From NCBI GenBank assembly GCA_022482785.1, contig JAKVON010000014.1, positions 3,938-67,937 of the forward strand: a stretch of DNA of 64,000 nt. Direction: 5' to 3'. A program made the position numbers and the translations under genes. Below are positions 17,233-64,000 of this stretch, piece after piece. This DNA comes from Atopobiaceae bacterium (GTDB taxonomy: Bacteria > Actinomycetota > Coriobacteriia > Coriobacteriales > Atopobiaceae). Each line of letters begins with the position of its first letter. Within the stretch, counting starts at the first letter, position 1. The notes below the pieces were generated by a model. It did not search any database. It was not told the origin of the DNA and was given only the letters and a program-made list of their open reading frames with translations.

Positions 17233-20200
17233 CTACACCTTGTTGATGTCGGTCAGCTTGAACTTGCCGATCCGTCGCAGCGCGATGAGATTCACCAGGA
17301 CGGAGAAGAACGCTGTGGATGCGACGCCCGCAAGGCAGGCGATCACGCTCGGGTTGGCGATGTAGTCGTCCATCTCGAACTCGATGGACTGGATCGACAG
17401 GTATCCCATGACCGACCCGACAACGATGCCGATGATGATGCCGATGATGGTGAGGACGATGCTGTCGAGGTAGATGTACCTCTTGGCATCACGTAACGAG
17501 AATCCGTTGATCATGAGCACGATGAGGTCGCGCTTCTTCTCCTCGATGAACATGATGGACTGGTTGAGCAGGACGACGAGGGCCATGAGCGCGGAGAGGG
17601 CGATGTAGAGGATCACGAGCGTGCGCGTGATCGAGGTGAGCGAGTCGAACTGCGCCTTGTCGTCGATGTAGTCCTCCTTGACCGAGAAGAACCCCTTCAT
17701 CTGGCGGAGCTGGGAGATCAGCTGCTCCTTGTCGGCCCCGTTGTTGGTGATCAGGATGGTGTTCGGGGCGTAGGTGACGCCGAAGACGGACTCGTAGTAG
17801 TCCTTCCTCATCACGAACTCGTGCCGCGTGAGCCGCCAGGGGAAGACCGTCAAGACGCTGATGTCGTGCGACGTGTTGTCGGTGGTGTAGACGTCGACGT
17901 TAAGCTCCGCGTTGGGATCGTGGACGTTCAGGCGGTAGAGTGATCCGAGGTGCTTGACGAATCCCGAGCTCACCAACGCATTGCTCGAGAGCTCTTCGTC
18001 GTACTCCTGCCTGAGCTCTTCGTCTTGGGTGTGCAGGTTTTCGTCGAACGAGGCGTTGTTGTCCGGGACGCTGACCTCGATGGGGCTGGTCGAGCCGTCT
18101 GGCTTCCTGACCAGGTAGAACTCTCTCCGGTAGAGGGCGGCGTTCGCTCCCGCGTCGTTGATGGTCTGCTCCATGGCCGCGAGGTCCTCCGCGGTCGCGT
18201 CTCTCGTGACGATCGAGTAAGTGTAGGTGTAGACCTCGGTGTACTGGTCCTGGAAGGTCTTCTCGACGTCTATGAGCATGGTCGTGGCGCTCACGACCAG
18301 CGCGGTGCAGCCCATGACACCCACGACGGTTCCGAGAACGCGCAGCTTGTCGTTGAAGAAGTTGTTGACGATCGACTGGGAGAGCACGGGCAGCTTGTTC
18401 CAGATGCGCAGCCTCTCGTAGAAGTGCTGCTTGCTGCTGGGGGGCTCCTCGCCCTTGAGGAGCTGGATGGCCTGCTTCTTGAGCATCTTGCGGCAGGCGA
18501 ACCATGCGGAGAGGAGAATCAGCGCGAGTTCGACCGCGCCTATCTGCAGCACATCCACGATGGAGGCGTATGGCCCGTACGACCCGAACGAGAACTGCGA
18601 CTGCGCGGCGCCGTTGAGCACGCCCTCGACGATCAGGATCGCGAGCAGGGCGCCTGCCGCGATCCCGATGACGACGGCGAGGCCGGCGTAGGCGAGGAAG
18701 CTCGTCGTGATCTCCCCGGAACGCAGGCCGAGTGCCTTCTTGGTGCCGATGGTCACGATCTGCTCTTTGACGATGCGCGAGATGGCCGTGTAGCAGACGA
18801 GCAGACCCACGAGCAGGAAGAGCGAGGCCATCGAGAGGCGCAGGCGGTCGGTGACGTCGGCGAAAGACGAGATCTGGGCATAGCCCGCGTTGGCGTGGCG
18901 GTTCTGCACGATCCAGCCGGTGTCCTTCGCCTGCTCGAAGGTCTCGACCTTCTGGGCGAGGGTGGCCTTGGCATCGGCGAGCTCGGCCTTCTTCTGCTCG
19001 ATGGTGGCCTTGCCGTCCTCTATCTCCTGCTGCTTCTGCTCGATGGTGGCCTTGCCGTCGGAGAGCTCCGGTCTTCTTCTGGGCGAGGGTCGCCTTGCCG
19101 TCCGCGAGTTCCTGCTCCTTCTCGTTGAGCGTGATGCGGGCCGAGTTGTACTCCCCGATGCCGCTCTCGAGCTGCGAGCGTGCCGACAGGTACTGCTTGT
19201 ATTGGGAGAGGGCGCCTCTCGGCCTGGGAGGAGAACGTCGAGACGAGCGGCTCGGGAACGCCCTTGCCGCGGGCGACCTCGGAGGCCGACTTGCCGGATG
19301 ACGCCGCCTCGTCGAGGATTGACCTCAGCAGGTCGGCGACGTTCGAGGCCGATCCGAGCGCGTTCGTGGTGTCCTTGGCCTTTATCGAGTTCGCGGCGTT
19401 GTCGATGGTGGCGTTGATCTCGCCCTCCTTGCGCACTGAGCTCGGACTCCGCCTGGTTGATCGGTGTCGAGCTTGTCGGCAAGCGTGGCCTCGGCATCAT
19501 CGGCCTGGGCCTGCCCGTCCGCGATCTCCTGCTCCTTCTCGGCGATCGTCTGCTCGCCGTCCGCGATCTCCTGCTGCTTCTCCGCGATCGTCTGCTCTCC
19601 GTCGGCGATCGTCTGCTCACCGCTGTCTATCTGGGCCTGCCCGTCGTCGATCTTGGCCTGGGCGTCGTCTATCTGGGCCTGGGCCTTGCTCCTGAAGGCC
19701 GCATAGCGCGCCGCGGCGTTGGCGTTCCCCAGATCCTGGAGCTTGTCGAGCATCGCGCTCGTGGCCGTCGTGTAGCTGGTGCCGAAGGAGGAGATTCCAG
19801 ACGTCGCGCTGCAACGCACGAGGGCATTCGAGTAGCAGCCGTCATAGGTGGCCGTGTCGAATGCCGCCTGGGGCAGGACGAGGAAGCAGTCGGCGGACCC
19901 CACCGAGAGGTTGGTCGTGCCGCGCGTGGAGAGCGTGACCGATTCGTAGCAGGGAGAGCTCACGAGGGCACACACCTTGAACGACCTGCCATTGAGGTAC
20001 TTCGAGCCGTCTGCGGCGCTCGTGTCGTCGGGGTCGAACGTGATGGTGTCGCCGATGCCCAGGCCCATCTTGCCGGCGAAGACGCTGTCCACGGCGACTT
20101 CGTCGGCATTCTGCGGGAGCGTCCCGTCGATGCAGACGGGCTGGTCGATGGTGTCGGGAATCGATATGACCGTGGCGACGTGACCCTGGCCGTCGAGCGA

Positions 20201-24446: not shown

Positions 24447-24495
24447 GTGGGTCTCCTCTCTCGTTGGTTTAAACAAGTCTAGCCATTTTTACGAG

Positions 24496-24531
24496 AGGCC
24501 CCTCCGCCGCGTCCATGCGGCAGAGGGGCCT
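24496..24531. terminator. GC-rich hairpin just downstream of ppc (minus strand)
   Basis: AGGCCCCTCcGCCGC, loop gtccat, GCGGCaGAGGGGCCT. There is no U-tract in the minus-strand direction. Confidence 0.45.
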
Positions 24532-24553
24532 GGAAGCGGCATGTCCGGGGATT

Positions 24554-27292
24554 CTACCCCGTGTTCTGGAGGCCTGCGGCGACTCCGGAGACGGTGCAGA
24601 GGATGAGGAAGATGAACCGCTCGCGCTCCTCCGGCGTGAGCGCGTCGCCCCTGGTCCTGATCTCGCGAAGGGCGTGCACCTGCGCGAGCGAGAGGGCGTT
24701 CACGTAGGGCAGCCTCACGCGCACGACCTGGCCCAGGACCCGCCTCTTGGCGAGCGGCGCCTCGTCGCCCACGATGGCGAGGACCCACTTGCGCGTGAGG
24801 CGCATCTCGTCCATGACCTTCTTGGTGAGGTCGGGGCGGTCGCCGAGGGAGAGGTACATGGCGGCGATGCGGTCGTCGGTCTTGGCGAGCGACATCTCGA
24901 TGTTGTCGACGAAGGTGGTGAAGACGGGCCACTCCCCGTAGGCCTTGCGCAAAAGCTCGAGGTCGTCGAGCCTCTCGCAGGCGGTGCCCAGGCCGTACCA
25001 GGCGGCGAGGTTGATGCGCGCCTGCGACCACGAGAACACCCAGGGGATGGTGCGCAGGTCGTCGAGCGAGGTGGCGCCCAGGCCGCGCTTGGCCGGCCGC
25101 GAGCCGATGGGCAGCAGGCCTATCTCGGCGAGCGGCGTCACGGTCGAGAACCACTCGGGGAACCCGTCGGTGTTGAGGAGGTCGACGTAACGCTCGCGCG
25201 AGGCGAGGTCGAGCCTCTTGCCCATGTCGCCGTAGATGCGCGTGGTCTCGGTGTTGAGCCACTCGATGCTGGGCGCGGAGTTGAGCAGCGTGGCCGCCGC
25301 GACCGACTCCACGTGCCTGCGGGCGAGCGTCTGGTCCCCGTAGCGGGCGAAGATGACCTCGCCTTGCTCGGTGAGCTTGAAGCGGCAGTTGACCGAGCCC
25401 TTGGGCTGCGAGAGCACGGCGTGGTTGGCGGGCCCGCCCCCGCGGCCGACGGCGCCCCCGCGACCGTGGAACAGCGTGAGGTCGATGTGGTGCTCCTCGG
25501 CCCAGCGAGCGATGCGGCCCTGCGCGGAGTGGAGGGCGAGCGTGGCCGAGGTGGGGCCGGCGTCCTTGGACGAGTCGGAGTAGCCGAGCATGACCTCCAT
25601 CTTGCGCCCGGTCTGGGCCAGGCGGCGCTGGACGTCGGGGAGCTTGATGATCTCCTCGAGGGTGTCGACCGAGCCCTCCAGGTCCTCCAGCTGCTCGAAG
25701 AGGGGGATGACGTCGAGCGTGGGAACGTCGGCCTCGTGCTCGAAGGCGAGGCGGGCGAGCTCGTAGACGTCGGCAATGTCCTGCGCCGACTTCGTGAACG
25801 AGATGATGTAGCGCCTGGCGGCGTCGACCCCGTTCTTGCGCTGGATGTAGCCGATGGAGCGGAAGGTGTCGAGGACCTCGAGGGTCATGGGGGCGAGCGC
25901 GCCCCTCTCGCCATGGCGCCCGTGCTCGCGGATGTCGGCCAGGGCCCGCGAGTGCACGACGGAGTGCTGGCGGAACTCCATCTGCACGAGGTGGAAGCCG
26001 AAGGTCTGCGCCTGCCAGATGAGGGTCTGGACGGGCCCGTAGGCGCTGCGGACCGCCCCGGAGCCGGCGAGCGAGTCCTGGACGACGCGCAGGTCGGCGA
26101 TGTACTCGTCGGCCGAGCCGTACATGATGTCGGCGGTGCGGGCGATGGTCGCCTCGAGCCGGTTGGCGATCACGAGCATGACGGCGCGGTGCGGCTCTCG
26201 GTCGGAGACCTCGCTCGCCTGGTCGGTGAGGCGCTCGCTCATCTCCACCTGGTGGTTCCAGAGGTTGGTGAGCTCGGCCGAGGGGGTGGTGGACCCCGCC
26301 TCGAGCGTGAGGTTGCGGCCGATGGCGTGGGTCTCGGAGGCGAGGGTCTCGAGCATGTGGACGCGGAACTTCTCGGAGACGGTGCGGCTCACCTTGGCGG
26401 TGACGTTGGGGTTGCCGTCGCGGTCGGAGCCGATCCAGCTGCCGGGATGGAAGAAGGCCGGGCACACGGGCGGCACGGTGCCCGCCTCGGCTCCGAGCTC
26501 CCAGTCGTCGAAGCGGCGGTATACCTCGGGGATGGTGCGGAAGAGGGTGTTGTCGAAGATGTCGATGATGGTGTCGGCCTCCTCGACGGGGGTCGGCTTC
26601 TTGAGCGCGATGGGCGAGGTGCGGAAGAGGGCGTCGATCTCCTGGAGCATGCGCCGCTCGTTCTCGGCGAGGTCGGCCCCGCCGAGGCTGGGACGCTCGT
26701 CGAGCAGCCGTGCGATGCGGCGGATTTTGCCCTCGACCGCCTTGCGGCGCGCCTCGGTCGGGTGTGCCGTGAAGACGGGATGGAACTCGAGCCTGCCCAG
26801 GAGCTTGTCGGCCTCGTCCTTGCCCATCTCCTCGATGAGGCGGCGATAGGCGACGGTGATCTCGTTGACGGGGTCCTCGGCCGCGTCGAGGTCGACCAGG
26901 GACTCGCGGGCACGCAGCGACGACACGCGGTAGTTCTCCTCGCAGACGTTGGCGAGGTGGAAGTAGGCCGCGAAGGCCCTCATGACCAGCTGGGAGCTGT
27001 CCTCGGAGAGAGACTCGACGACGCTCACCGCGTCGGCGAAGGCCGCGTCGGCCCTCTTGGCAGGCGACTGGCTGGAGTAGGTGTCGATCATGTCGTCGAG
27101 CAGGTGGTCGAAGACCTTCCGCAGCTCGGGGTCGTACTCCTTGAGGACGCGCCTGACCAGGCGGAGGAAGAGCTCGAGGTTGTCTTTGAGGGCGTCTGGA
27201 ACGTTCACCTCCGAGAGGGCCTCGGCGGCCGCGGCCGCCTCCCCCCTCGGCTCGATCATGCGCTTGAGCTCGTGCGTTTCGTCTTGAGTCAC
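24554..27292 (-). CDS. ppc: Phosphoenolpyruvate carboxylase
   Basis: 912 aa. [12 protein letters not shown] and [10 protein letters not shown] motifs. C-terminal ...GLQNTG signature. Confidence 0.95.
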
Positions 27293-27446
27293 GGTGCCTC
27301 CCCATGGGGCGCCGCGATGGGCGTCCCTGCACGCTCGATAGTTATCGCGGACAAGGGTAGCAGCCCGGTCCCGCGTGGCAGGCGGCGCGGGCCGTTTCGT
27401 AATCTGCAGATAACAGAAGGGTCATGTGGCGACCGTGGTTGGTCCC

Positions 27447-27621
27447 TGGCAGAAAAAGCAGGGTGTGCGGTCGGAGGGCCGCGGCGCGTGGCAGAAAAAG
27501 TCGAGTTTGCGGTTCCCAAACCTCTCCCGCAACCGGCTTCGGCTCGAAAACACGACCGCACACCCTACTTTTACTGCCAGAAGATTGCTTTTGAGGACCG
27601 CACACCCTGCTTTTCCTGCCA
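27447..27621. repeat. 175-bp composite element of four 26-nt units (two forward, two reverse), copy A
   Basis: Units at 27447-27472, 27489-27514, 27554-27579 and 27596-27621. Unit starts are at offsets 0/42/107/149. See findings. Confidence 0.85.
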
Positions 27622-27720
27622 TGCGGGGCAATAGGGGGGCGGCGAGGTGGGTATCGTGATGGTGGTGGAACGTCCTCGCGCGTCCCTCCTCCTTGTATCC
27701 GCCGCAGAAGGGCTCTTCGC

Positions 27721-28347
27721 ATGGTCACCGACACCTCTCTCACAGGCTTCCTCGACGTCCTCTCGTCGGCCGCCCCGGTTCCCGGCGGGGGAGGGGCGGC
27801 TGCCGTGGCCGGTGCCATGGCGGCTTCGCTGGGCGGGATGGTCGCCAGCCTCACCAGCGGAAAGCGCCGCTATGCAGACGTGCAGGCGCAGATCGACGAC
27901 TGCGTCGGGCGTGCCGGGCGCCTCCGCGGGGAGCTCCTCGCGCTCGCCGACGCGGATGCCGCCGCATTCGAGCCCCTCTCCGTGGCCTACGGCCTTCCCA
28001 AGGGCACCGAGGGGGAGCGAGCCCGCAAGGCGGAGGTCATGGAGGCGGCGCTTCGCGAGGCGTGCGAGCCGCCCCTTCGCATGATGGAGACCCTCGGCGA
28101 GGTCATCGACCTGCTCGAGGAGCTCGGGCGCATCGGGACGCGCATCGCCGTCTCCGACGTGGGGGCGGGGGCGGCGCTCGCATCCGCCGCGCTTCGGGCG
28201 GCGAGCCTGAACGTCCTCATAAACGCGCGCTCCATGGCCGATCGCGAGCATGCCGACGCGCTGGTCGGACGGACGCGCCGCCTGGTGGACGAGGGGTGTG
28301 CCAGGGCGGATGCGCTCTACCTCGAAGTCGAGAGGGGAATCGCATGA
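27721..28347 (+). CDS. fchA: Cyclodeaminase/cyclohydrolase family protein (methenyl-THF cyclohydrolase FchA / FTCD C-domain type)
   Basis: 208-aa all-helical protein. FLDVLSSAAPVPGGGGAAAVAGAMAASL motif. Its stop overlaps the folD start (ATGA). Confidence 0.85.
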   Translation: MVTDTSLTGFLDVLSSAAPVPGGGGAAAVAGAMAASLGGMVASLTSGKRRYADVQAQIDDCVGRAGRLRGELLALADADAAAFEPLSVAYGLPKGTEGERARKAEVMEAALREACEPPLRMMETLGEVIDLLEELGRIGTRIAVSDVGAGAALASAALRAASLNVLINARSMADREHADALVGRTRRLVDEGCARADALYLEVERGIA

Positions 28348-30379: not shown

Positions 30380-31633
30380 TTGAACGGCAAATACTATAAG
30401 GAGCCGAGCAAGGCTCTCGATCGCGACATGGAATACAAGGTCTTCGGCGAGGCGGGCAAGATCTGCCTGCTCTTCCCGCCTTCGGACTGCCGCTTCTACG
30501 ACTACGAGGACCACGGCATGATCGACGCCCTCGCCCCCTTCATCGAGGCCGGCAAGCTCCAGGCCGTCTGCGTCGACGCCGTCGACGACGAGACCTGGTT
30601 CGCCCAGGGAGACGTGCACAGTCGCATGGAGCTCCAGGAGAGGTACTTCTCCTACATCACCGAGGAGCTTCTCCCCACGCTCAAGAAGCGCAACGGCGCC
30701 TACCCCATGGCCATGACGGCGGGCTGCTCGATGGGTGCCTTCCATGCCGCGAACTTCTTCTTCCGTCGCCCGGACTACTTCGACAAGGCGCTCTGCCTCT
30801 CGGGCGTCTACACCGCCGATCACTTCATCCCCGGCTATGACGACGAGCTCGCCTACATGAACTCGCCCTTCGACTTCCTGAGCGGCATGGCCGAAGACCA
30901 TGAGGCCATGGGCTACTACCGCGACGCCGACCTCGCGTTCTGCGTCGGCGGCGCAGAGGACGCCTCGATGATCGAGGGCGCCCACGCCATGGAGCGCCTC
31001 CTTGGCGAGAAGGGCATCGAGGCTTGGTTCGACTACTGGGGAGACGACGTCACCCACGATTGGCCCTGGTGGGACCAGCAGCTCCCGTACTTCATGGACG
31101 AGGCCCTGAAGAACCTCCCCGCGCCCGCGAAGAGGCCCGCCGCCAAGAAGGCCGCCCCTGCCAAGAAGGCCGCAGCCGAGCCCGCGCCTGCAGCCAAGCC
31201 CGCAGCCAAGAAGGCCGAGCCAGCCAAGAAGCCTGCCGCTGCCCCCAAGGCTGCCGCTGCCCCCAAGCCCGCCGCGAAGCCCGCGGCCGCTGCCAAGAAG
31301 GCCGCCCCTGCAGCCAAGCCCGCAGCCAAGAAGGCCGAGCCCGCCAAGAAGCCTGCCGCTGCCCCCAAGGCTGCCGCGAAGCCCGAGGCAGCCAAGCCCG
31401 CCGCGAAGCCCGCGGCCGCTGCCAAGAAGTCGGCCCCTGCAGCCAAGCCCGCAGCCCCCAAGGCCGCCGCGAAGCCTGCTGCAGCCAAGCCCGCTGCCAA
31501 GAAGGCCGCCCCTGCAGCCAAGCCTGCGGCAGCCAAGCCCGCAGCCACGACCAAGAAGGCTGCCCCCAAGCCCGCAGCCCCCAAGGCCGCCGCGAAGCCT
31601 GCGGCGGGGAAGGCCGCTCCCAAGAAGAAGTAG
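30380..31633 (+). CDS. Esterase family protein (alpha/beta hydrolase) with ~185-aa C-terminal Ala/Lys/Pro-rich tail
   Basis: TTG 30380 lies 6 nt after AGGAGG (30368-30373); ATG 30350 is an alternative. Nucleophile elbow GCSMGA. The tail from ~31141 consists of PAAKKA/PAAKPA-type repeats through to the stop. Confidence 0.85.
   Translation: MNGKYYKEPSKALDRDMEYKVFGEAGKICLLFPPSDCRFYDYEDHGMIDALAPFIEAGKLQAVCVDAVDDETWFAQGDVHSRMELQERYFSYITEELLPTLKKRNGAYPMAMTAGCSMGAFHAANFFFRRPDYFDKALCLSGVYTADHFIPGYDDELAYMNSPFDFLSGMAEDHEAMGYYRDADLAFCVGGAEDASMIEGAHAMERLLGEKGIEAWFDYWGDDVTHDWPWWDQQLPYFMDEALKNLPAPAKRPAAKKAAPAKKAAAEPAPAAKPAAKKAEPAKKPAAAPKAAAAPKPAAKPAAAAKKAAPAAKPAAKKAEPAKKPAAAPKAAAKPEAAKPAAKPAAAAKKSAPAAKPAAPKAAAKPAAAKPAAKKAAPAAKPAAAKPAATTKKAAPKPAAPKAAAKPAAGKAAPKKK
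31187..31377 (+). repeat. Intragenic long repeat within the AKP tail (two 71-nt copies, 120-nt period)
   Basis: 31187-31257 and 31307-31377 differ at one position (cctgcagccaagcccgcagccaagaaggccgagcc[a/c]gccaagaagcctgccgctgcccccaaggctgccgc). A further related copy lies at ~31392-31456. Confidence 0.8.
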
Positions 31634-36992: not shown

Positions 36993-37020
36993 TTGACACC
37001 CTATCTGTAATCTGCATAAT
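36993..37020 (+). promoter_or_regulatory. Sigma-70-like promoter for the Rrf2 operon
   Basis: TTGACA (36993-36998), 16 nt, CATAAT (37015-37020), about 68 nt upstream of ATG 37088. Confidence 0.55.
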
Positions 37021-37079
37021 TACAGATAAGAGTAACCGTTACGATTACAGATAAGAGTAACCGTTACGATTACAGATAG
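37003..37079. promoter_or_regulatory. Operator-like repeat array: inverted ATCTGTAAT/ATTACAGAT plus 2.4 tandem copies of a 25-bp unit
   Basis: ATTACAGATAAGAGTAACCGTTACG occurs at 37019-37043 and 37044-37068, with a partial copy at 37069-37079. Each full unit contains the palindrome GTAACcGTTAC. The inverted half-site lies at 37003-37011 and the palindrome formed with 37019-37027 spans the -10. Confidence 0.6.
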
Positions 37080-37087
37080 GGGCGGCG

Positions 37088-37543
37088 ATGAACAGCGAGT
37101 TCGCCATAGCGACGCATGCCCTCGTCTACGTCTCCCACGTGGGACGCTGCGTCTCGAGCGAGGAGCTCGCCGAGAACATCTGCACGAACCCCGCGCGCGT
37201 CCGCAAGGTGATGGCACGGCTCGTGCCGGCAGGCCTCGTGGAGTCGAGGGCGGGCGCGGTCGGGGGCTACTGCCCGACGGCAGGCCTCGACGCGAGGACC
37301 CTCGCTGACGTCGCGGACGCGTTGGGCACGCGGCTCGTCTCCGCGTCGTGGAGCTCGGGCGACGTCGACAGGGAGTGCCAGGTGAGCTCGGGCATGGGCG
37401 CGCTCATGCAGGGCGTCTACGACGACCTGGACGCCCTGTGCCGGCGCCGCCTCGCCCAGACGACCGTGGGCGACGTCGTGCGGGAGCTTTTCTCGGGGAG
37501 GGGAGCGGCCGCCAAGGGTGCGGCCGCCGGAAGGGACGACTGA
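37088..37543 (+). CDS. Rrf2-family transcriptional regulator
   Basis: 151 aa. N-terminal FAIATHALVYVSHVGRCVSSEELAENICTNPARVRKVMARL winged-helix. Confidence 0.88.
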   Translation: MNSEFAIATHALVYVSHVGRCVSSEELAENICTNPARVRKVMARLVPAGLVESRAGAVGGYCPTAGLDARTLADVADALGTRLVSASWSSGDVDRECQVSSGMGALMQGVYDDLDALCRRRLAQTTVGDVVRELFSGRGAAAKGAAAGRDD

Positions 37544-49189: not shown

Positions 49190-51379
49190 ATGTCGAAGAA
49201 GACCATCCTCATAGCAGACAACTCCCTCATCAACCGGACGTACCTCTCCGGCATCCTGAGCGACGAGTACGACTGCCTGGAGGCAGTGGATGGCCAGAAG
49301 GCGCTCGACATCCTGAGGGAGCGCGGCATCGACATCGCCGCCATGCTCCTCGACCTCGTCATGCCTGTCATGGATGGCTACCAGGTCCTCGAGGAGATGT
49401 CCAAGGACCCGGGGCTCCGGCAGATTCCCGTCGTCGTGGTCACCGCCGAGAGCGAGACCAGCGTCGAGGCGCGCGCTCTCGATGCCGGTGCCATGGACTT
49501 CCTCACCAAGCCCATCGAGCCCGAGATAGCCCGCCGGCGCATCAAGTCGGTGGTCAACGCGCGCGAGCTCGAGGAGCTCCACATCAGGAACCGCCTGCTC
49601 GAGGAGATGCAGTACCAGGCCGACCACGACGAGCTCACGGGAATCTTCTCCCGCAGTGCCTTCTATCGCGACACGAGGGCGATGCTTCTCGCGAACCCCG
49701 ACACGGACTACATCCTCATCCGCTGGGACATCGAGAAGTTCAAGCTCGTGAACGACCTGTTCGGCATGAAGACAGGCGACCAGATGCTCGTCGCCGCGGC
49801 GGAGAGCCTTGCCCGTCACGTCTCCGACCTGGGGACCTACGGCCGGTTCGGCTCAGACAACTTCCTCATCTGCGTGCCGGCCGCGTCCCTCGACGTCGAG
49901 AGCTTCATGGACGTCATCGTCAACGAGATCCGGAGCTCGTTCGAGGACGCCGGCATCGCTCAGTCCGTGGTCCTGGCGACGGGCGTCTTCCGCATCACCG
50001 ACCACGACCTCGCCGTCGGGCAGATGTGCGACCGCGCAGGCATGGCGCTCCAGACGGTCAAGGGCGACTATACCAGGCACGTCGCCTACTACGACGACAA
50101 GCTCGGGAATCGCCTCCTCGAGGACCAGGACATCCTCGACAACATGGAGGCGGCGCTCGCCAACGGCGAGTTCGAGGTCAACCTCCAGCCGGTCTACAGC
50201 CTCTCCACCGGCCGTCCGGCCAGCGCCGAGGCCCTCGTGCGGTGGCGGCGCCCCGGCAAGGGGCTCGTCTCGCCCGGGGTGTTCATCCCCCTCTTCGAGG
50301 AGAACGGCTTCATCTCCAAGATGGACTACAACATCTGGGAGCAGGTCTGCCAGATCCAGCACATGCGCAACGAGAAGGGCCTCACGCCCATACCCATCTC
50401 GGTGAACCTCTCCCGCAAGAGCGTCTACGACCCCAACCTCGTCGAGAGCATCGTCGGGCTCCTGAGGCGCTACGAGATCGAGCCCCGGCTCTTCCGCAAC
50501 GAGGTCACCGAGTCCGCCTACATCGACAACGCGACCCAGCTCATCAAGACCGTCGAGGACCTCCAGCGCTATGGCTTCACGGTGCTGATGGACGACTTCG
50601 GCAACGGCTACTCGTCGTTCAACACCCTGAAGGACATCCCGGTCGACATCCTCAAGATCGACATGAAGTTCATGGAGGGATTCGAGCGCGGCGGGCGCGT
50701 CGGCGTGATTCTCGCCTCGGTCCTCCGCATGACCAAGTGGCTCGGCATTCCCGTCATCGCCGAGGGCGTCGAGACGCTCGAGCAGTACGAGTTCCTCCAC
50801 TCCATCGGATGCGACTACACGCAGGGGTTCTACTTCGCGCGCCCCATGCCCTACGACGAGTTCGAGGAGCACGTCGCGGGCCTGCCCAAGGCGGCCATCA
50901 CCTCGCCGGCCCGATTCCACGTGGACGACGTCGTCGCGGCCCTGGGAAGCGGCCACCTCTTCGACCGCGTGATGGACGACATCCTCGATGCCTATGCGGT
51001 CTACGAGTTCAACGCCAGCGCCCTCGAGACGGTGCGCGGGAGCGAGGGCTACTTCAAGCTGTTCGGCTACGACATGGACGCGTTCAAGCGCGAGTCGAGC
51101 AACGTCCTCCATCACATCGTCCACGACGACCGCGAGTACGTGGTCCAGGCCTGCCATGAGGCCATCGAGACCGGCAAGCCTTGCAACCTGGCCATCTCGT
51201 GCACCGTCAGGGGAGGCGAGGTGTGTCGCCTCCATCTCACGCTCTCCTGCGTGGGCAAGTCCAACGACGAGACCGCCCTTATCTTCGCCGCGTTCCATCT
51301 CATCGACAACGGCTGCGAAGGCGACCTTCACGCCTCGTGCCCGTATGCCTCCGAGAACGTCGGCAAGCACGTCTTCTAG
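49190..51379 (+). CDS. Response regulator: REC - degenerate GGDEF - EAL - C-terminal PAS-like domain
   Basis: 729 aa. REC ILIADNS...LLDLVMPVMDG. The GGDEF position reads RFGSDNFLI. EAL domain is intact (EALVRW, EVTES, DDFGNGYSS, KIDMKF, EGVET, QGFYFARP). Confidence 0.9.
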   Translation: MSKKTILIADNSLINRTYLSGILSDEYDCLEAVDGQKALDILRERGIDIAAMLLDLVMPVMDGYQVLEEMSKDPGLRQIPVVVVTAESETSVEARALDAGAMDFLTKPIEPEIARRRIKSVVNARELEELHIRNRLLEEMQYQADHDELTGIFSRSAFYRDTRAMLLANPDTDYILIRWDIEKFKLVNDLFGMKTGDQMLVAAAESLARHVSDLGTYGRFGSDNFLICVPAASLDVESFMDVIVNEIRSSFEDAGIAQSVVLATGVFRITDHDLAVGQMCDRAGMALQTVKGDYTRHVAYYDDKLGNRLLEDQDILDNMEAALANGEFEVNLQPVYSLSTGRPASAEALVRWRRPGKGLVSPGVFIPLFEENGFISKMDYNIWEQVCQIQHMRNEKGLTPIPISVNLSRKSVYDPNLVESIVGLLRRYEIEPRLFRNEVTESAYIDNATQLIKTVEDLQRYGFTVLMDDFGNGYSSFNTLKDIPVDILKIDMKFMEGFERGGRVGVILASVLRMTKWLGIPVIAEGVETLEQYEFLHSIGCDYTQGFYFARPMPYDEFEEHVAGLPKAAITSPARFHVDDVVAALGSGHLFDRVMDDILDAYAVYEFNASALETVRGSEGYFKLFGYDMDAFKRESSNVLHHIVHDDREYVVQACHEAIETGKPCNLAISCTVRGGEVCRLHLTLSCVGKSNDETALIFAAFHLIDNGCEGDLHASCPYASENVGKHVF

Positions 51380-51395
51380 GCCCTCGCCGCACCCC

Positions 51396-51570
51396 GGGCA
51401 GAAAAAGCGGGGAATGCGGTCGTCCGGGGTTCCCTCCTGGCAGAAAAAGTCGAGTGTGTGGTCGTGTTTTTGGGCCGTTGCCCGTCTCGGGCGGGTCCCA
51501 GGGACCGCATTCTCTACTTTTTCTGCCCCCGAGCAGCTTCCGATGACCGCACACCCCATCTTTCCTGCCA
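51396..51570. repeat. 175-bp composite element of four 26-nt units, copy B
   Basis: Units at 51396-51421, 51438-51463, 51503-51528 and 51545-51570. The offsets 0/42/107/149 are identical to copy A. Confidence 0.85.
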
Positions 51571-51684: not shown

Positions 51685-54600
51685 ATGGAGGTGTCGGACG
51701 AGACCATCGACGTCCTCGCCGCCTCCTTCCCTGGCGACTTCGCCATCGTTCGGCTCGAGGCCGACTCCGTCGTGACCCTGCGCCGCTCCGAGGGCCTCCA
51801 TGGCCTCTTCGGCATGGACCGGCGCGAGTACGCCGACCTCGTTCGCGACGACCCGCTCTCCGTGGTCTTCGAACGCGACCGGCCCCTCGCGAGCGAGGCG
51901 CTCGCCTCGCTCGGGGCCGGCGAGGGCGAGGCCTCCCTCTCCCTCAGGCTCGTCCACAAGGCCAAGCTCGCGATGTGGTCCCGCGCGAGGGTCCGGGTCG
52001 TGGGCACGCAGGGGGGGAGCCCCGTCGCGGCATGCTCGCTCCTCGACTCCTCGGACGGCATCAACGAGCACTCCCAGCTGCTCGGCAACGCCGGCATAGG
52101 AATCTACGTCATCGACGTCGGCACCCACGAGCTGCTCTATGTCAACGACCACCTCCTCGAGGCCTGGGGTCGCTCCGACTATCCGGGCCGGCTCTGCCAC
52201 GAGTTCGTCAACGGCTTCCCCCATCCCTGCGCGTGGTGCTCCGTCCCCCTCATGGAGGACGGGTCGTTCCACGCGGACGAGGCCTATGACCCCAGGAACG
52301 ACAAGTGGTTCACCATCGACTGCCGGGACGTCGACTGGTACGGGCATGCCGCGGTGGCCGTCTACTCCATCGACGTCACGGCGCGGAAGCTTCGCGAGGA
52401 GCATCTCGAGATCGACGTCGACGGCCTCCAGTCGATAATCGAGAACATCCCGTTCGGCATCGCCGTGAGGGAGATGCGCGACGGGCGAACCGTGACGAGC
52501 GTCGTGAACCCCATGTTCTGCGGCCTGCTCGACATCACGAGGGGGCAGTACCTCGCCGACAGCGGCGACATCCTCGAAAAGGTCCTCGAGGAGGACCGCG
52601 CGAAGCTGACCGCCCACATGAGGACGCTCCTCGGGCCGAGCGACGAGAGGGAGTGCGTCTTCCGCTACGCGGTGGGCGCCGCGCGGACGGTGCGCTGGTA
52701 CTCCCTGCGCACGCGCACGATCGCGCAGCAGGGCAGCACGCTCATACTCTCGTGCCTCATCGACCTCACCGCGGAGCGCGAGGCCCAGCTCCAGGCGCTG
52801 CAGAACCAGAGGATGTACGAGGCGGCCGTCGAGGAGGCGCGCCTCTCCGTCTGGGAGTACGACATGTCGGGCCGCCACATCGCCCTGACGGGAAGGGGCG
52901 ATGCGTTCCCCGGGGCCCTCGAGGCGGAGCCGTCCCAGCTCATCGAGAACGTCCCCGACTCCCTGCTGTCCTTCGTCGCCGAGCACGACCGCGCCGCCTT
53001 CGCCGACATGTTCCGCCAGGTCGCCGAGGGAGCTCCCAGGGCGGCGTGCGAGGTCTGGTACAAGGCCCGGGACGACAGCGAGCCCCGCTGCGAGCGCATG
53101 AGCTGCACCACGGTGTTCGATGCCGACGGCCGCCCGGTCAAGGCCTATGGAATCAGCCAGGACGTCACCGTGCAGAGGATCGAGGAGGAGAACTACGCGC
53201 GCCTCTACGGCGACATCGGCCAGCTGGACACCCAGATCATCGGCAGCTACCGGCTGAACCTCACCAAGAACGGCTTCGAGCACGTCGCCGGCGAGCTGGC
53301 GCCCTCCGATCCCTCGTCGGCCGACCGCTCCGCCGACGCCTTCTTCTCGCTGCTCGCCTCCGACATCGAGGACGGCGCGATCCGCGAGCGCTTCTCCGGG
53401 ACGATCTCGCGCGAGCGCCTGCTCGAGGCCTTCCGCGAGGGCAGGCAGCGCCTCTCCATGGAGTTCCCGATCGTGCTCTCGGACGGGGGCGTCCACTGGA
53501 TCGAGAACGTCTACTCGATGGCGCAGAACCCCCTCACCGGCGACGTCGAGGCCGTCTCCTACGCGCGCGACATAAGCCTGCGCGTGAAGGACGAGGCCGT
53601 CGTTCGCCAGATCGCCGAGCAGGGCTACGACTTCGTCGGCATGGTCGACGCCAAGTCGGGCCTCTTCGAGATGCTCCAGCTGAGGCCGGGCGCGCCGCAT
53701 GCGTTTCCCCTCAACGAGAAGACGGCCTACGCGGCCTTCCTCGAGTGGCTCGGCCGCAATGCCCTCGGCGACGACGCCGAGGCCATGGGGACCGCCATAC
53801 GCCTCTCCGCGGTGCGCGACTCGCTGGGTCGCAGCCCCGTCCTGAACGTGCCCTATCGCGCCGTGGGCGACGACGGCTCCGAGCTGCGCAAGCAGCTGCA
53901 GTTCAGCTGGATGGGAAACCTCCGGCGGGAGGTCCTGATCGCCCAGACCGACGTCACCTCCTCGTATCGCCTCGAGCAGGAGCAGATACGCAGGCTCGAT
54001 GCCGCCCGCCGCGCCCAGGAGCACACGAGCGCCCTCATGCAGAGCATCCTCGACACCACGCCCGCCTCCATCTTCTGGAAGGACGCCGACCGTCGCTTCG
54101 AGGGCGCGAACAGGGCCTTCCTCGACTTCTACGGCTTCCCCTCGCTCGATGCCATCCTCGGCAGGAACGACGAGGACATGGGCTGGCATCCCGACGCGGA
54201 GCCCTACAGGAACGACGAGCTCGCCGTCATCCGCGACGGGGTCTCCACCCACCGCGTGCCCGGCATCTGCGTCGTGCGCGGCCGGGAGCGCAACATCGTC
54301 GCGAGCAAGAGCCCGCGCTACGAGCGGGGCTCGATCGTGGGGCTCGTGGGCAGCTTCGAGGACGTGACCGACGAGTACGAGCGCAACGCGGAGATCGCGC
54401 GCCTGAACGACGACCTCAAGCGCTCGCTCGGCGAGGTCGAGAAGGCCAATGCCGCCGAGCAGGCCTTCATGTCCAACCTGAGCCATGACATCCGCACGCC
54501 GCTCGGCGGGGTCCTCGGCTTCACCGAGCTGGCCATGGACACGAACGACATCACGCTCAAGCAGAGCTACCTGGAGAAGATCGACGCCTCGGGGAAGCTC

Positions 54601-62414: not shown

Positions 62415-62431
62415 CGGGTTTCGGCCTTCGC

Positions 62432-62524
62432 GCCGACCCCCACGAATGCAGTCTGCGACCAAAAGTGGCGGGAATCGCCGCCTCGTGGCCAATGGTTGCA
62501 TTCGTGGGGATTCGCCGGGAAGGG
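62432..62524. repeat. 93-bp direct repeat, left copy (contains an inverted pair of W-type units forming a 13-bp stem)
   Basis: Matches 63908-64000 at 89/93 positions. All 4 differences lie in one 5-nt block (cagtc versus gcatt). CCCCACGAATGCA (62438-62450) pairs with TGCATTCGTGGGG (62497-62509). Confidence 0.9.
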
Positions 62525-62577
62525 CGCTGAGAGGGGCGCCTCGTCTGCCAGGCGTTTCTCTCCGCCTTATGAGACGT

Positions 62578-62695
62578 GACCCCCACGAATGGCATTTGCG
62601 ACCGCCGCAGACCCCCACGAATGCAGTCTGCGACCAGGAGTAGCCCCAAACCGCCCCACAAACTCCGCCGACCCCCACGGATCCAGTTTGCGACC
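62578..62695. repeat. Three further direct W-type 26-nt units
   Basis: GACCCCCACGAATGGCATTTGCGACC (62578-62603), GACCCCCACGAATGCAGTCTGCGACC (62610-62635) and GACCCCCACGGATCCAGTTTGCGACC (62670-62695). Confidence 0.85.
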
Positions 62696-62709
62696 ACCGG
62701 TCAACGCCC

Positions 62710-63714
62710 TCATCCCTTCGCGCGCGGCAGCATGACGCGGCAGAACTCCTGGCGGTGGGCCTCGAAGGAGCGAGCGCGTATCCGCAGCCTCATTCCCTGC
62801 GCGGATGCCACGTCTCGGGCGATTTGCGCCATCGCCTCGCGGGACCTCAGCTGTCGGGCGGTGACGGTGATGATTCTCCATCCCATATGGGAGAGGTCGT
62901 TTCTCCGCTGGGCGTCCCGGGCGATGCGCGGCGGATCGGCGTGTCCCTCTCCGTCGTATTCGATGGCGAGCCGGGCGTCCGGGTAGCAGAGGTCGATGCG
63001 ATAGGATCGCGGGCCTCCTGGCAAACGGAGCCCTTCGTCTATGTCCACCGTGTAGTTCAGCTGCGGGCGTCCCGCGCAGAAGCAGCCGAGATGATGGGGA
63101 AGCCACAGATGCATGGACAACGCGGTCTCTCTCGGAGAGGCAGATTTCTCAAGCACGTAGGGAAGAAGCGACGCCGCGCGGTTGCTGCCGCGAACGTCGG
63201 CGCTCGAGAGGAATCTCTTCAACGATTCGGCAGATGAGAGGGGTTGGCGCACGGCGACGCCGTCTTCCCCCGCGTCGCATGAGGCCAGGGAGTAGGTTCC
63301 GCAGAGCCTGAAGCCCATTCGGATGATGTCGAGATCGCCCGCGATCCTCGTCTCGTGACTGGCGCGCGTCCGTTCGAGCAGGCATTGCTCTGGGGTGGCC
63401 ACGAAGACATTGGAGGATATCTGCTGCATCGCGCCTGTGGGGAGCGGCCCGCTCCAGACGTGGCATTCGATGCCTGACAGGTACGAGCGATTGGCCTCCA
63501 ATCCAACAGAGATCGAGATGGGCTCGGCGAGAATCTCCTCGGAACGCGTGCCGAAGAATCGCCGACAATCGTCGTGGAACTCGTCGATATCCGCACGGAT
63601 GGGTTTCCCGAGGTCGAGGATCTCCATGCGGCGTGATCTCCGGTCGCCATGGGGAGGGCGGCGGAGTAAATCCCAAAAGCGCAAGGCGGTATCGTATGTC
63701 ACGTAGATGCTCAT
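62710..63714 (-). CDS. DUF559 / Vsr-like endonuclease-fold domain protein
   Basis: ORF 62710..63774, probably starting at MSIYVTYD (ATG 63714). C-terminal YRIDLCYPDARLAIEYDGEGHADPPRIARDAQRRNDLSHMGWRIITVT matches the DUF559 pattern. AT-rich upstream region at 63720-63900. Confidence 0.75.
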   Translation of the reverse strand: MSIYVTYDTALRFWDLLRRPPHGDRRSRRMEILDLGKPIRADIDEFHDDCRRFFGTRSEEILAEPISISVGLEANRSYLSGIECHVWSGPLPTGAMQQISSNVFVATPEQCLLERTRASHETRIAGDLDIIRMGFRLCGTYSLASCDAGEDGVAVRQPLSSAESLKRFLSSADVRGSNRAASLLPYVLEKSASPRETALSMHLWLPHHLGCFCAGRPQLNYTVDIDEGLRLPGGPRSYRIDLCYPDARLAIEYDGEGHADPPRIARDAQRRNDLSHMGWRIITVTARQLRSREAMAQIARDVASAQGMRLRIRARSFEAHRQEFCRVMLPRAKG

Positions 63715-63907
63715 GGCCCAAGCATGCACGAAGGCTCTAACAGATTTTTGTACGCAATTTACAAATAGTGACACTCTAGCGTAAATACGCTGCTCAACGG
63801 TGCTAATTGCGATGTGCTGGTGGGAATATCTCGACCGAATTCACATAAAATAAGCATACACATCACCATCGGCGCTGCCCAACGTATAGATTATTGCCGC
63901 GAGTGGT

Positions 63908-64000
63908 GCCGACCCCCACGAATGGCATTTGCGACCAAAAGTGGCGGGAATCGCCGCCTCGTGGCCAATGGTTGCATTCGTGGGGATTCGCCGGGAAGGG
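63908..64000. repeat. 93-bp direct repeat, right copy (runs to the window edge)
   Basis: See 62432-62524. The true extent is unknown because the window ends here. Confidence 0.9.

What the first reader, a model, noticed from the sequence alone, without database searches (positions are those of the whole stretch)
51396..51570. Second copy of the module: identical geometry, conserved units, unrelated spacers
Copy B lies between the REC-GGDEF-EAL gene and the large PAS kinase. Its units start at 51396, 51438, 51503 and 51545, which gives exactly the same offsets 0/42/107/149 and the same 175-bp length as copy A. The 26-nt units are recognisably the same family; for example, U2 is TGGCAGAAAAAGTCGAGTGTGTGGTC versus TGGCAGAAAAAGTCGAGTTTGCGGTT. 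The 16-nt and 39-nt spacers share no obvious similarity (ggagggccgcggcgcg versus gtccggggttccctcc). The best reverse-complement partner of U1 is U4 in copy A (25/26) but U3 in copy B (23/26). Conservation therefore looks unit-wise rather than compensatory. This favours spacing-constrained sites, or a repeat family, over a single conserved RNA fold.
Basis: seen in the sequence. Interest (0 to 1): 0.65.

Follow-up and report, generated by a model that had tools for sequence, protein, structure and literature searches.

The report
Species-restricted four-unit palindromic intergenic repeat
This is one of two copies of a 175-bp non-coding repeat, built from four 26-nt units at fixed spacing that can fold into a two-tier hairpin; I found it only in one uncultured gut-type Atopobiaceae species, and it looks like a new family of the ordinary class of bacterial palindromic intergenic repeats rather than an RNA gene.

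Summary
The coordinates, the 0/42/107/149 offsets and the 175-bp length are correct. The window holds exactly eight units, all of them in the two modules.

"Unrelated spacers" is only partly right. The two 39-nt central spacers match at 25/39 when one is reverse-complemented (p<5e-5).

Sister-strain contigs gave one diverged allele per locus, at 79-80% identity with no indels. So the geometry holds in four independent sequences, while adjacent DNA is 97-99% identical.

Changes between alleles are shared by all four units of a module. Nested pairing (U1:U4, U2:U3) and crossed pairing (U1:U3, U2:U4) are supported equally (87.5% vs 88.5% paired). G·U and A·C mismatches show no clear strand preference, and no Rfam family matches. 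None of this supports one specific RNA fold.

In the sister allele of copy A, as in copy B, the module lies just after a stop codon between co-directional genes. One end of a diverged tract coincides with a module end at both loci. A 2,137-bp Fur-catalase indel starts 2 nt from copy A.

No copy was found in any public collection searched.

Best reading: a lineage-restricted dispersed palindromic repeat of the REP/BIME/Correia kind. A four-site protein-binding array is the main rival.

The parts
51396..51570 (.). Copy B of the module (175 bp): U1-16 nt-U2-39 nt-U3-16 nt-U4. It starts 17 nt after the stop codon of the REC-GGDEF-EAL gene and ends 114 nt before the ATG (51685) of the PAS hybrid kinase.
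51396..51421 (+). B-U1: GGGCAGAAAAAGCGGGGAATGCGGTC
51438..51463 (+). B-U2: TGGCAGAAAAAGTCGAGTGTGTGGTC
51464..51502 (+). B central 39-nt spacer. It is asymmetric and is the reverse complement of copy A's central spacer at 25/39. It reads GUGUUUUUGGG...CCCAGG in the sense of the flanking genes.
51503..51528 (-). B-U3 (unit on the minus strand)
51545..51570 (-). B-U4 (unit on the minus strand)
27447..27621 (.). Copy A of the module, with the same geometry. In the window it lies between the divergent PEP carboxylase gene (24554-27292, minus strand) and the FTCD_C/FolD genes (27721 onward, plus strand).
27623..27624 (.). Junction 2 nt after copy A's right end. Sister-strain contigs carry 2,137 bp (catalase plus Fur-family regulator) here that the window lacks.
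27429..27617 (.). Diverged tract at locus A (window vs L205): 44 differences in 189 nt, covering the module plus 18 nt to its left. The flanks are about 99% identical.
50871..51570 (.). Diverged tract at locus B (window vs L200), 78-80% identical. Its right edge coincides with the module's right end; identity is 97% from 51571 on.

Best explanation
The module is a copy of a lineage-restricted, dispersed, non-coding palindromic repeat. It belongs to the same general class as REP/BIME, ERIC, Correia and other MITE-like elements, and occurs in an uncultured Atopobiaceae species.

Architecture (shown):
- Each half carries two 26-nt units in direct orientation, 42 bp apart start to start. The other half is the inverted image.
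- Each unit has a conserved outer block (T)GGCAG-A(4-5)-G, a variable middle (positions 13-19) and a conserved inner block TGCGGTC.

How it probably works (inferred):
- As single-stranded DNA, or as RNA read through from the upstream gene, it folds into a two-tier hairpin: U2:U3 inside U1:U4, separated by a 16x16-nt internal loop. The predicted energy is -87 to -102 kcal/mol.
- The arms are kept alike by DNA-level homogenisation within the module. Candidate processes are template switching or gene conversion between arms, or selection for complementarity.
- The palindrome is a preferred end-point for recombination tracts and deletions.
- At the RNA level, a hairpin just after a stop codon would most plausibly act as a 3'-end barrier or RNase III target that separates neighbouring co-directional genes. 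Other palindromic repeats do this.

How the element spreads is not known.
For: A discrete repeat:
- Two copies share only the 175 bp, with sharp edges and unrelated flanks.
- There are 8 units in the window and none is isolated.

Palindrome and hairpin:
- Both strands of both copies fold far better than shuffles (z -5.1 to -8.3).
- The inner hairpins fold at -44 to -53 kcal/mol.

Constrained geometry:
- Alleles from sister strains are 79-80% identical with no indel.
- At locus A the flanking DNA is about 99% identical. DNA to the right of copy B is 97% identical.
- Four-fold degenerate sites of the flanking genes are 87% (GGDEF-EAL gene, locus B) and 98.6% (FTCD_C gene, locus A) identical.

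Concerted change that keeps the arms complementary:
- U1:U4 is 25/26 in both A alleles, although each unit differs at 3 positions between alleles.
- The transition:transversion ratio is about 1, which fits exchange of diverged sequence better than point-mutation drift.

Position and orientation:
- B starts 17 nt after a stop codon.
- In the L205-type arrangement, A lies 59 nt after the catalase stop, on the minus strand.
- The asymmetric central spacer has the same orientation relative to transcription in both loci.

Recombination association:
- The Fur-catalase indel starts 2 nt from A's end.
- The right edge of the diverged tract lies within about 10 nt of the module's right end at both loci.

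Not an RNA family or a protein:
- Rfam finds nothing.
- A search with the translated module finds nothing.
Against: - Only two loci could be examined, because the rest of the genome is out of reach. Copy number, target duplications and empty sites are therefore untested.
- The best-conserved bases (GGCAG/CTGCC and TGCGGTC) and the exact 16/39/16 spacing are not needed for a hairpin as such. They would suit a sequence-specific DNA-binding protein better.
- The 16-nt spacers of the two arms are not complementary to each other.
- The U-tracts lie inside the helix and are followed by the paired CUGCC, so this is not a canonical intrinsic terminator.
- In the window itself copy A lies between divergent genes.
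- Diverged recombination tracts are common between these strains: 10 of 28 windows near locus B. Other gene-sized indels also exist. Part of the 'hot-spot' signal could therefore be coincidence; my rough estimate for the indel end-point alone is p 0.02-0.08.
- No transposase, integrase or RAYT-like gene is present in the window.
Confidence: 0.5

Rival explanations
1. The module is an array of four binding sites on double-stranded DNA for one sequence-specific protein. One version is a transposase or recombinase that recognises two sites per end, as in IR/DR-type or Tn552-, Tn402-, Mu- or Tn7-like transposon ends; the module would then be a miniature non-autonomous element made of two ends. The other version is a host regulator or architectural protein. 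The spacing is fixed because the sites must lie on one face of the helix.
For: - Each unit has a bipartite conserved pattern around a variable middle.
- Spacing is identical in four diverged sequences.
- The 42-bp unit period equals 4.0 helical turns. The A/T tracts of all four units lie 42, 74 and 42 bp apart, which is 4.0, 7.05 and 4.0 turns (read from the sequence).
- The module ends are 5'-TG...CA-3' in both A alleles.
- A 6-nt direct repeat TGGCTC flanks the L205-type allele of A (chance about 0.002 before correction for the many ways of looking).
- An indel begins 2 nt from the module end, as in adjacent deletions made by transposable elements.
- The 16-nt spacers of the two arms are not complementary, so the hairpin is not optimised.
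Against: - Within one species, alleles of one locus differ by changes shared across all four units. This is hard to explain by one protein's fixed specificity.
- There is no flanking repeat at copy B.
- B's left end is GG/AG rather than TG.
- No partner element or protein gene is in the window.
- No longer element carrying these units was found in GTDB species genomes, JGI metagenome contigs, IMG/VR or PLSDB plasmids.
- No empty site was seen: every strain contig that reaches either locus carries the module.
Confidence: 0.27
2. The module is a functional structured RNA element: a dedicated double terminator or attenuator, an RNase III processing site, or a small RNA. Its two-tier hairpin would be the selected feature.
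For: - The predicted folds are strong.
- The position is just after a stop codon in B and in the L205-type arrangement of A.
- The central spacer has the same orientation relative to transcription in both loci.
- An A-tract precedes and a U-tract follows each GC-rich stem arm, as in bidirectional terminators (sequence).
- Some base pairs changed on both sides.
Against: - The incompatible crossed pairing is supported at least as well as the nested one (88.5% vs 87.5% paired; 7 vs 5 pairs with double changes).
- Across the four modules, G·U-type and A·C-type mismatches show no clear strand preference.
- The inner helix carries a mismatch at unit position 14 in all four modules.
- The U-tract is buried in the helix.
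- No Rfam family matches even at E<=10.
- Copy A in the window lies between divergent genes.
Confidence: 0.12
3. There is no element. The two copies would be a chance resemblance or a simple segmental duplication of an intergenic region.
For: Only two loci are available.
Against: - Eight units score 18.6-26 bits each, with nothing else above noise in 64 kb.
- The edges of similarity are sharp and the flanks are unrelated.
- Internal geometry is identical in four diverged sequences.
Confidence: 0.02

Closest known systems
REP / BIME elements of enterobacteria and REPINs of Pseudomonas
   Same: - They are short non-coding units dispersed in intergenic regions, often just after stop codons.
- Units in inverted orientation form hairpins.
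- Linkers are less conserved than the units but have characteristic lengths (BIME linkers).
- They are associated with recombination break-points and with mRNA 3'-end effects.
   Different: - REP units are themselves imperfect palindromes; these 26-nt units are not.
- BIMEs alternate orientation (> < > <), whereas this module is > > < <.
- No RAYT-type gene could be looked for outside the window.
- There is no sequence similarity.
Correia elements (NEMIS) of Neisseria and other MITE-like palindromic repeats such as ERIC and RUP (from my own knowledge)
   Same: - Size of 100-200 bp.
- Terminal inverted repeats; those of Correia elements are also 26 bp.
- Intergenic location, co-transcription with neighbouring genes and long hairpins that RNase III can cut.
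- Restriction to one lineage.
   Different: - Correia elements have one pair of inverted repeats, a TA target duplication and a conserved interior.
- Here there are two pairs of units, unconserved 16-nt spacers of fixed length, and no consistent target duplication.
- There is no sequence similarity.
Transposon ends with two transposase-binding sites per end: the IR/DR structure of Sleeping Beauty-type elements, Tn552, Tn402/Tn5090, Mu and Tn7-like ends (from my own knowledge)
   Same: - Direct repeats of a 19-30-bp site within each end, inverted between ends.
- Fixed spacing.
- TG...CA termini.
   Different: - No transposase gene or longer element with these units was found anywhere.
- Target duplication is seen, at best, at one of two loci.
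- The units of a module co-vary between alleles.
Integron attC sites (from my own knowledge)
   Same: - Two pairs of inverted sites (R''-L''...L'-R') around a variable centre.
- Structure is conserved more than sequence.
- Conserved mismatches are present in the folded form.
- They lie next to a gene-sized presence/absence polymorphism.
   Different: - attC boxes are 7-8 bp with about 5-bp spacers, and carry a conserved GTTRRRY.
- The length of the attC centre varies.
- No integrase or cassette array is present here.

Membership tests
MITE (miniature inverted-repeat transposable element) | Terminal inverted repeats | tested here: met
   U1 vs reverse complement of U4: 25/26 (A, both alleles), 19/26 (B window), 23/26 (B L200)
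MITE (miniature inverted-repeat transposable element) | Target-site duplication flanking each copy | tested here: inconclusive
   TGGCTC flanks the L205-type allele of A (chance about 0.002 uncorrected). Nothing comparable flanks B or the window allele of A.
MITE (miniature inverted-repeat transposable element) | Autonomous partner element with the same ends and a transposase | tested here: not met
   No transposase in the window. Unit patterns gave only chance hits in GTDB genomes, JGI metagenome contigs, IMG/VR and PLSDB. The organism's own genome outside the window could not be searched.
MITE (miniature inverted-repeat transposable element) | Insertion polymorphism (filled and empty sites among strains) | tested here: not met
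   Every strain contig that reaches a locus carries the module (L098-L101, L200-L202, L205, L333, L334). The 70%-identical orthologue in another species has an 80-bp spacer, but also a different downstream gene.
REP / REPIN | Each unit is an imperfect palindrome; doublets are inverted; a RAYT gene is in the genome | tested here: not met
   The units are not self-complementary (sequence). Inverted pairs do form hairpins.
BIME | Units in alternating orientation, joined by linkers of characteristic length | tested here: not met
   Orientation is > > < <. Linker lengths are fixed at 16/39/16 in four sequences.
Intrinsic (bidirectional) terminator | GC-rich hairpin followed immediately by an unpaired U-tract, at a gene's 3' end | tested here: inconclusive
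   The position after a stop codon is met in B and in the L205-type arrangement of A. The U-tract is present but pairs with the A-tract and is followed by the paired CUGCC. The terminator scan does not flag the module.
Any Rfam RNA family | Score at or above the family's gathering threshold | tested here: not met
   No match in the window. At E<=10 only noise appears, 11.7-14.8 bits against thresholds of 44-137.
Structured RNA with one conserved fold | Covariation specific to one set of pairs, with strand-specific G·U tolerance | tested here: not met
   Nested 87.5% vs crossed 88.5% paired; double changes in 5 vs 7 pairs. G·U vs A·C mismatch counts show no clear strand preference. Only 4 distinct sequences were available.
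Integron attC | R''/L''/L'/R' boxes with GTTRRRY, next to an integron integrase or cassette array | tested here: not met
   No such motif is present at the module ends (sequence), and there is no integrase in the window.

The most novel reading that the evidence does not exclude
The four phased units could be the cis-site of an unrecognised recombination or transposition system. A protein encoded elsewhere in this genome would assemble on two sites per arm and move DNA next to the module. The Fur-catalase block that begins 2 nt from copy A, and the recombination-tract edges at the module ends, would then be its footprints. This would be a cassette-exchange mechanism with no described relative.
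Probability: 0.08. Interest if true: 0.75.

Novelty: new variant of a known kind. Interest (0 to 1): 0.33.

Why it matters
If the reading is right, this adds a new family, with an unusual two-plus-two unit architecture, to the palindromic intergenic repeats of bacteria. It comes from the Coriobacteriia, a class for which my one literature search on such repeats found nothing.

Its practical value is modest:
- It marks sites where strains of this gut-associated species differ, both in recombination-tract edges and in a Fur-catalase gain or loss.
- It offers a clean case of a repeat whose spacing is held exactly while its spacers diverge.
- It could serve as a strain-typing marker.

It would matter more if a protein turns out to read the four phased sites.

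Tried and rejected
Searches for more copies:
- Single-unit and two-unit DNA patterns in GTDB species genomes, JGI metagenome contigs and IMG/VR, plus blastn against PLSDB plasmids, gave only scattered single chance matches. The phage collection was not searched.
- A unit HMM run on 1.4 Mb of related Coriobacteriia loci found nothing. A sequence-independent search there for > > < < modules also found nothing, but it detected only copy A in the positive control; copy B fell below threshold.
- A profile of the module translated in all open frames, searched against 5.8 billion proteins to catch spurious ORFs laid over other copies, returned nothing at E<=10. The 66-aa ORF that a gene caller placed on the L205 module is not in the collection.

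Orthologous regions in other genera:
- The neighbours differ there. FTCD_C is not next to PEP carboxylase, and no catalase or Fur gene lies near it.
- The nearest PEP carboxylase outside the species is 77% identical.

Look-ups that failed:
- Several exact-protein look-ups found nothing, in some cases apparently because of start-codon choice.

Ideas dropped:
- Sigma-54 promoter: the GG...GC spacing is wrong.
- Invertase hix-type 26-bp site: the unit is not a dyad.
- Diversity-generating retroelement target: the substitutions are not adenine-specific.
- A degenerate fifth unit at the far end of the Fur-catalase block: not detected by HMM.
- Module-specific hypermutation at locus B: the diverged tract there also covers 525 bp of the upstream gene.

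Two literature searches found nothing relevant.

Full report
**The observation.** Copy B lies at 51396-51570 and copy A at 27447-27621. Each is 175 bp, with 26-nt units at offsets 0, 42, 107 and 149: the first two direct, the last two inverted. The unit consensus is TGGCAGAAAAAGyNGrGTGTGCGGTC. Pairwise unit identity is 18-25 of 26. A 12-nt core occurs 10 times with up to 2 mismatches against 1.16 expected. An HMM and a weight matrix built from the units find exactly eight units in 64 kb, all inside the two modules, and nothing else above noise. One claim is not. The 16-nt spacers of the two window copies are at chance level, but the 39-nt central spacers match at 25/39 when one is reverse-complemented, against 11/39 direct (p<5e-5).

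**Context and organism.**
- Copy B starts 17 nt after the stop codon of a REC-GGDEF-EAL gene (49190-51379). It ends 114 nt before the ATG (51685) of a PAS hybrid histidine kinase on the same strand.
- Copy A lies between PEP carboxylase (24554-27292, minus strand) and FTCD_C/FolD (27721 onward, plus strand).
- The window is 67% G+C. Its genes encode ordinary metabolism and many signalling proteins. I found no transposase, integrase or recombinase.
- Named homologues point to the Atopobiaceae. The nearest PEP carboxylase outside the species is only 77% identical, and GTDB genera such as Tractidigestivibacter and Olsenella reach about 75%. The lineage is therefore poorly sampled.

**Distribution.** Unit patterns in GTDB species genomes, JGI metagenome contigs and IMG/VR, and blastn against PLSDB plasmids, returned only isolated chance matches. 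There is no unit in 1.4 Mb of related Coriobacteriia loci. A looser search there for the > > < < architecture also found nothing, but it recovered only copy A as a positive control.

**Alleles from sister strains.** Members of the 90%-identity protein clusters led to contigs of related strains. L201 and L202 carry copy B identical to the window. L200 carries a diverged allele of B. L205, L333 and L334 carry a diverged allele of A.
- The diverged alleles are 140/175 and 139/175 identical to the window copies, with no indel.
- Within them, units are about 88% identical and spacers about 68-69%.
- At locus A the flanks are about 99% identical. The 44 differences cluster at 27429-27617, which is the module plus 18 nt to its left. 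Four-fold degenerate sites of the neighbouring FTCD_C gene are 98.6% identical.
- At locus B the module forms the right end of a roughly 700-bp tract that is 78-80% identical (50871-51570), with 97% identity from 51571 on. Such tracts are common between these strains, at 10 of 28 windows near locus B. The divergence at B is therefore not specific to the module, but the edge of the tract falls at the module's end.
- The geometry 26-16-26-39-26-16-26 thus holds in four independent sequences whose spacers have largely or wholly diverged. That indicates constraint on length.

**A gene-sized indel at the module edge.** Window 26800-27623 aligns to L205 16-839, and window 27624-28000 aligns to L205 2977-3353. 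The window therefore lacks 2,137 bp carrying a catalase gene and a Fur-family regulator gene, and this block begins 2 nt after the last base of copy A. At least 18 contigs carry the FTCD_C variant that lies next to Fur in all ten places shown. I cannot tell which state is ancestral. Other gene-sized indels exist between the strains, for example a 3-kb kinase gene in L333 that replaces 93 bp of the window. My rough estimate for an end-point this close to a module end by chance is 0.02-0.08.

**Folding.** Both strands of both copies fold into the same two-tier hairpin, with U2:U3 inside U1:U4 and a 16x16-nt internal loop. Energies are -87 to -102 kcal/mol, with z -5.1 to -8.3 against shuffles. 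The inner hairpins alone fold at -44 to -53 kcal/mol. In these folds the A-tract of one arm pairs with the U-tract of the other, and GGCAG pairs with CUGCC. The U-tract is therefore buried, and the hairpin is not a canonical terminator. The simple terminator scan does not flag the module, and such terminators are scarce in this window anyway.

**Structure or sites?** On the four distinct sequences:
- The nested pairing has 87.5% of cells paired and 5 pairs changed on both sides.
- The mutually exclusive crossed pairing (U1:U3, U2:U4) has 88.5% paired and 7 such pairs.
- G·U-type and A·C-type mismatches show no clear strand preference across the four modules.
- The inner helix has a mismatch at unit position 14 in all four modules. 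It arises because U2 always carries TCG at positions 13-15.

The changes between alleles are shared across the units of a module. In the L205 allele of A, all four units have T at position 19 and G at position 7, whereas the window allele mostly has G at position 19 and A, T or G at position 7. U1 and U4 remain 25/26 complementary in both alleles, although each differs at three positions between alleles. This is concerted evolution of the units within a module. It does not identify one RNA fold. It is also not what one protein of fixed specificity would produce within one species. The transition:transversion ratio between alleles is about 1, which fits exchange of already diverged sequence better than slow point mutation.

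**Orientation.** The central spacer is asymmetric: its identity to its own reverse complement is only 8-10/39. In the L205-type arrangement, Fur, catalase and PEP carboxylase all lie on the minus strand, and the module sits 59 nt after the catalase stop. Read in the sense of the flanking genes, the central spacer begins GUGUUUU and ends GGG (AGG in the window copy of B) at both loci. With two loci, agreement by chance has probability one half, so this is only a lead. The 16-nt spacers keep weak similarity to a common arm spacer in both orientations. That would follow if the module began as a perfect inverted duplication of one arm.

**Interpretation.**
- I read the module as a lineage-restricted dispersed palindromic repeat of the REP/BIME/ERIC/Correia class (confidence 0.5). 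Its hairpin-forming arms are homogenised at the DNA level, and its ends attract recombination end-points. When transcribed, it most plausibly acts as a 3'-end hairpin between co-directional genes.
- The main rival (0.27) is an array of four phased protein-binding sites, either a pair of two-site transposon ends or a regulator's sites. In its favour: the best-conserved bases and the exact spacing are not required by a hairpin; the 42-bp period is four helical turns; the A/T tracts of all units are 42, 74 and 42 bp apart; the termini are TG...CA; and a 6-nt repeat, TGGCTC, flanks one allele. Against it: the within-species co-variation of units, no consistent target duplication, no partner element and no empty site.
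- A dedicated structured RNA (0.12) and chance (0.02) rank lower.

**Comparison and novelty.** The comparisons with known families rest on my own knowledge of them. There is no sequence similarity to any of them, and two literature searches found nothing on such repeats in this group. Membership of the MITE, REP/REPIN, BIME, attC, terminator and Rfam families was tested feature by feature. It fails or is inconclusive for each one (see the membership table). I therefore class this as a new variant of a known kind. Interest is moderate to low (0.33): new palindromic repeat families are found often. The rigid two-plus-two architecture, the concerted change of units and the link with strain-level rearrangements are the unusual points.

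**Main limitation.** Only two loci, with two alleles each, could be reached.

Noticed in passing
window 62431-62524 and 63908-64000 (also 62575-62704): A second, unrelated repeat family. Two 93-nt direct repeats (96% identical) each contain the inverted pair CCCCACGAATGCA...TGCATTCGTGGGG. They flank a low-G+C segment of about 1.4 kb with a minus-strand ORF (62710-63774) that weakly matches DUF559/REase_MTES_1575 endonuclease-like domains. Three further partial copies lie just upstream. It looks like an inserted element.
   Followed up: partly
window 27623|27624; L205 840-2976: Sister strains carry a 2,137-bp block with a catalase gene and a Fur-family regulator gene between copy A and FTCD_C. 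The window lacks this block and has no catalase or Fur homologue anywhere in its 64 kb.
   Followed up: yes
window 24457-24549; L333 3101-6093: Another strain difference. L333/L334 have a 972-aa SBP-domain hybrid histidine kinase gene between PEP carboxylase and alpha-amylase, where the window has only 93 bp.
   Followed up: partly
window 50871-51570 and 52446-53495 vs L200: Between the window and L200 there are sharp-edged tracts of 72-80% identity within otherwise 92-99% identical DNA. This indicates frequent recombination with diverged lineages in this species.
   Followed up: partly
L205 745-756 (centre of the A module's central spacer): In the L205 allele the centre of the central spacer is the perfect palindrome GACCGCGCGGTC. 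It consists of the inner six bases of a unit and their reverse complement. The window allele has ACCGGCTTCGGC there, with eight consecutive differences.
   Followed up: no
window 51396-51570 and 27447-27621: The A5/T5 tracts of the four units are 42, 74 and 42 bp apart, which is 4.0, 7.05 and 4.0 helical turns. They would all face the same side of the duplex, so the module may be intrinsically bent DNA.
   Followed up: no
L201 5203-7656: In this low-coverage ENA contig the GGDEF-EAL ORF is called as 817 aa and runs through the whole module in an open frame. The stop-codon region and the module are identical to the window, so this is probably an upstream frameshift or an assembly error.
   Followed up: partly
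window 37032-37073: Two tandem copies of the 17-nt palindrome GTAATCGTAACGGTTAC lie just upstream of an Rrf2-family regulator gene (37088-37543), next to a near-consensus promoter-like site at 36993-37020. These are probably the regulator's operators.
   Followed up: no
window 41454-62414: A dense signalling cluster: four paralogous hybrid histidine kinases, two GGDEF proteins, an Hpt protein, a REC-GGDEF-EAL protein and, in L200's gene calls for the equivalent region, an HD-domain protein. Elsewhere there are Lys/Ala/Pro-rich coding repeats at 31116-31627 in an esterase-domain protein, and 42-nt periodic coding repeats at 18922-19690 in an FtsX-like permease gene.
   Followed up: no
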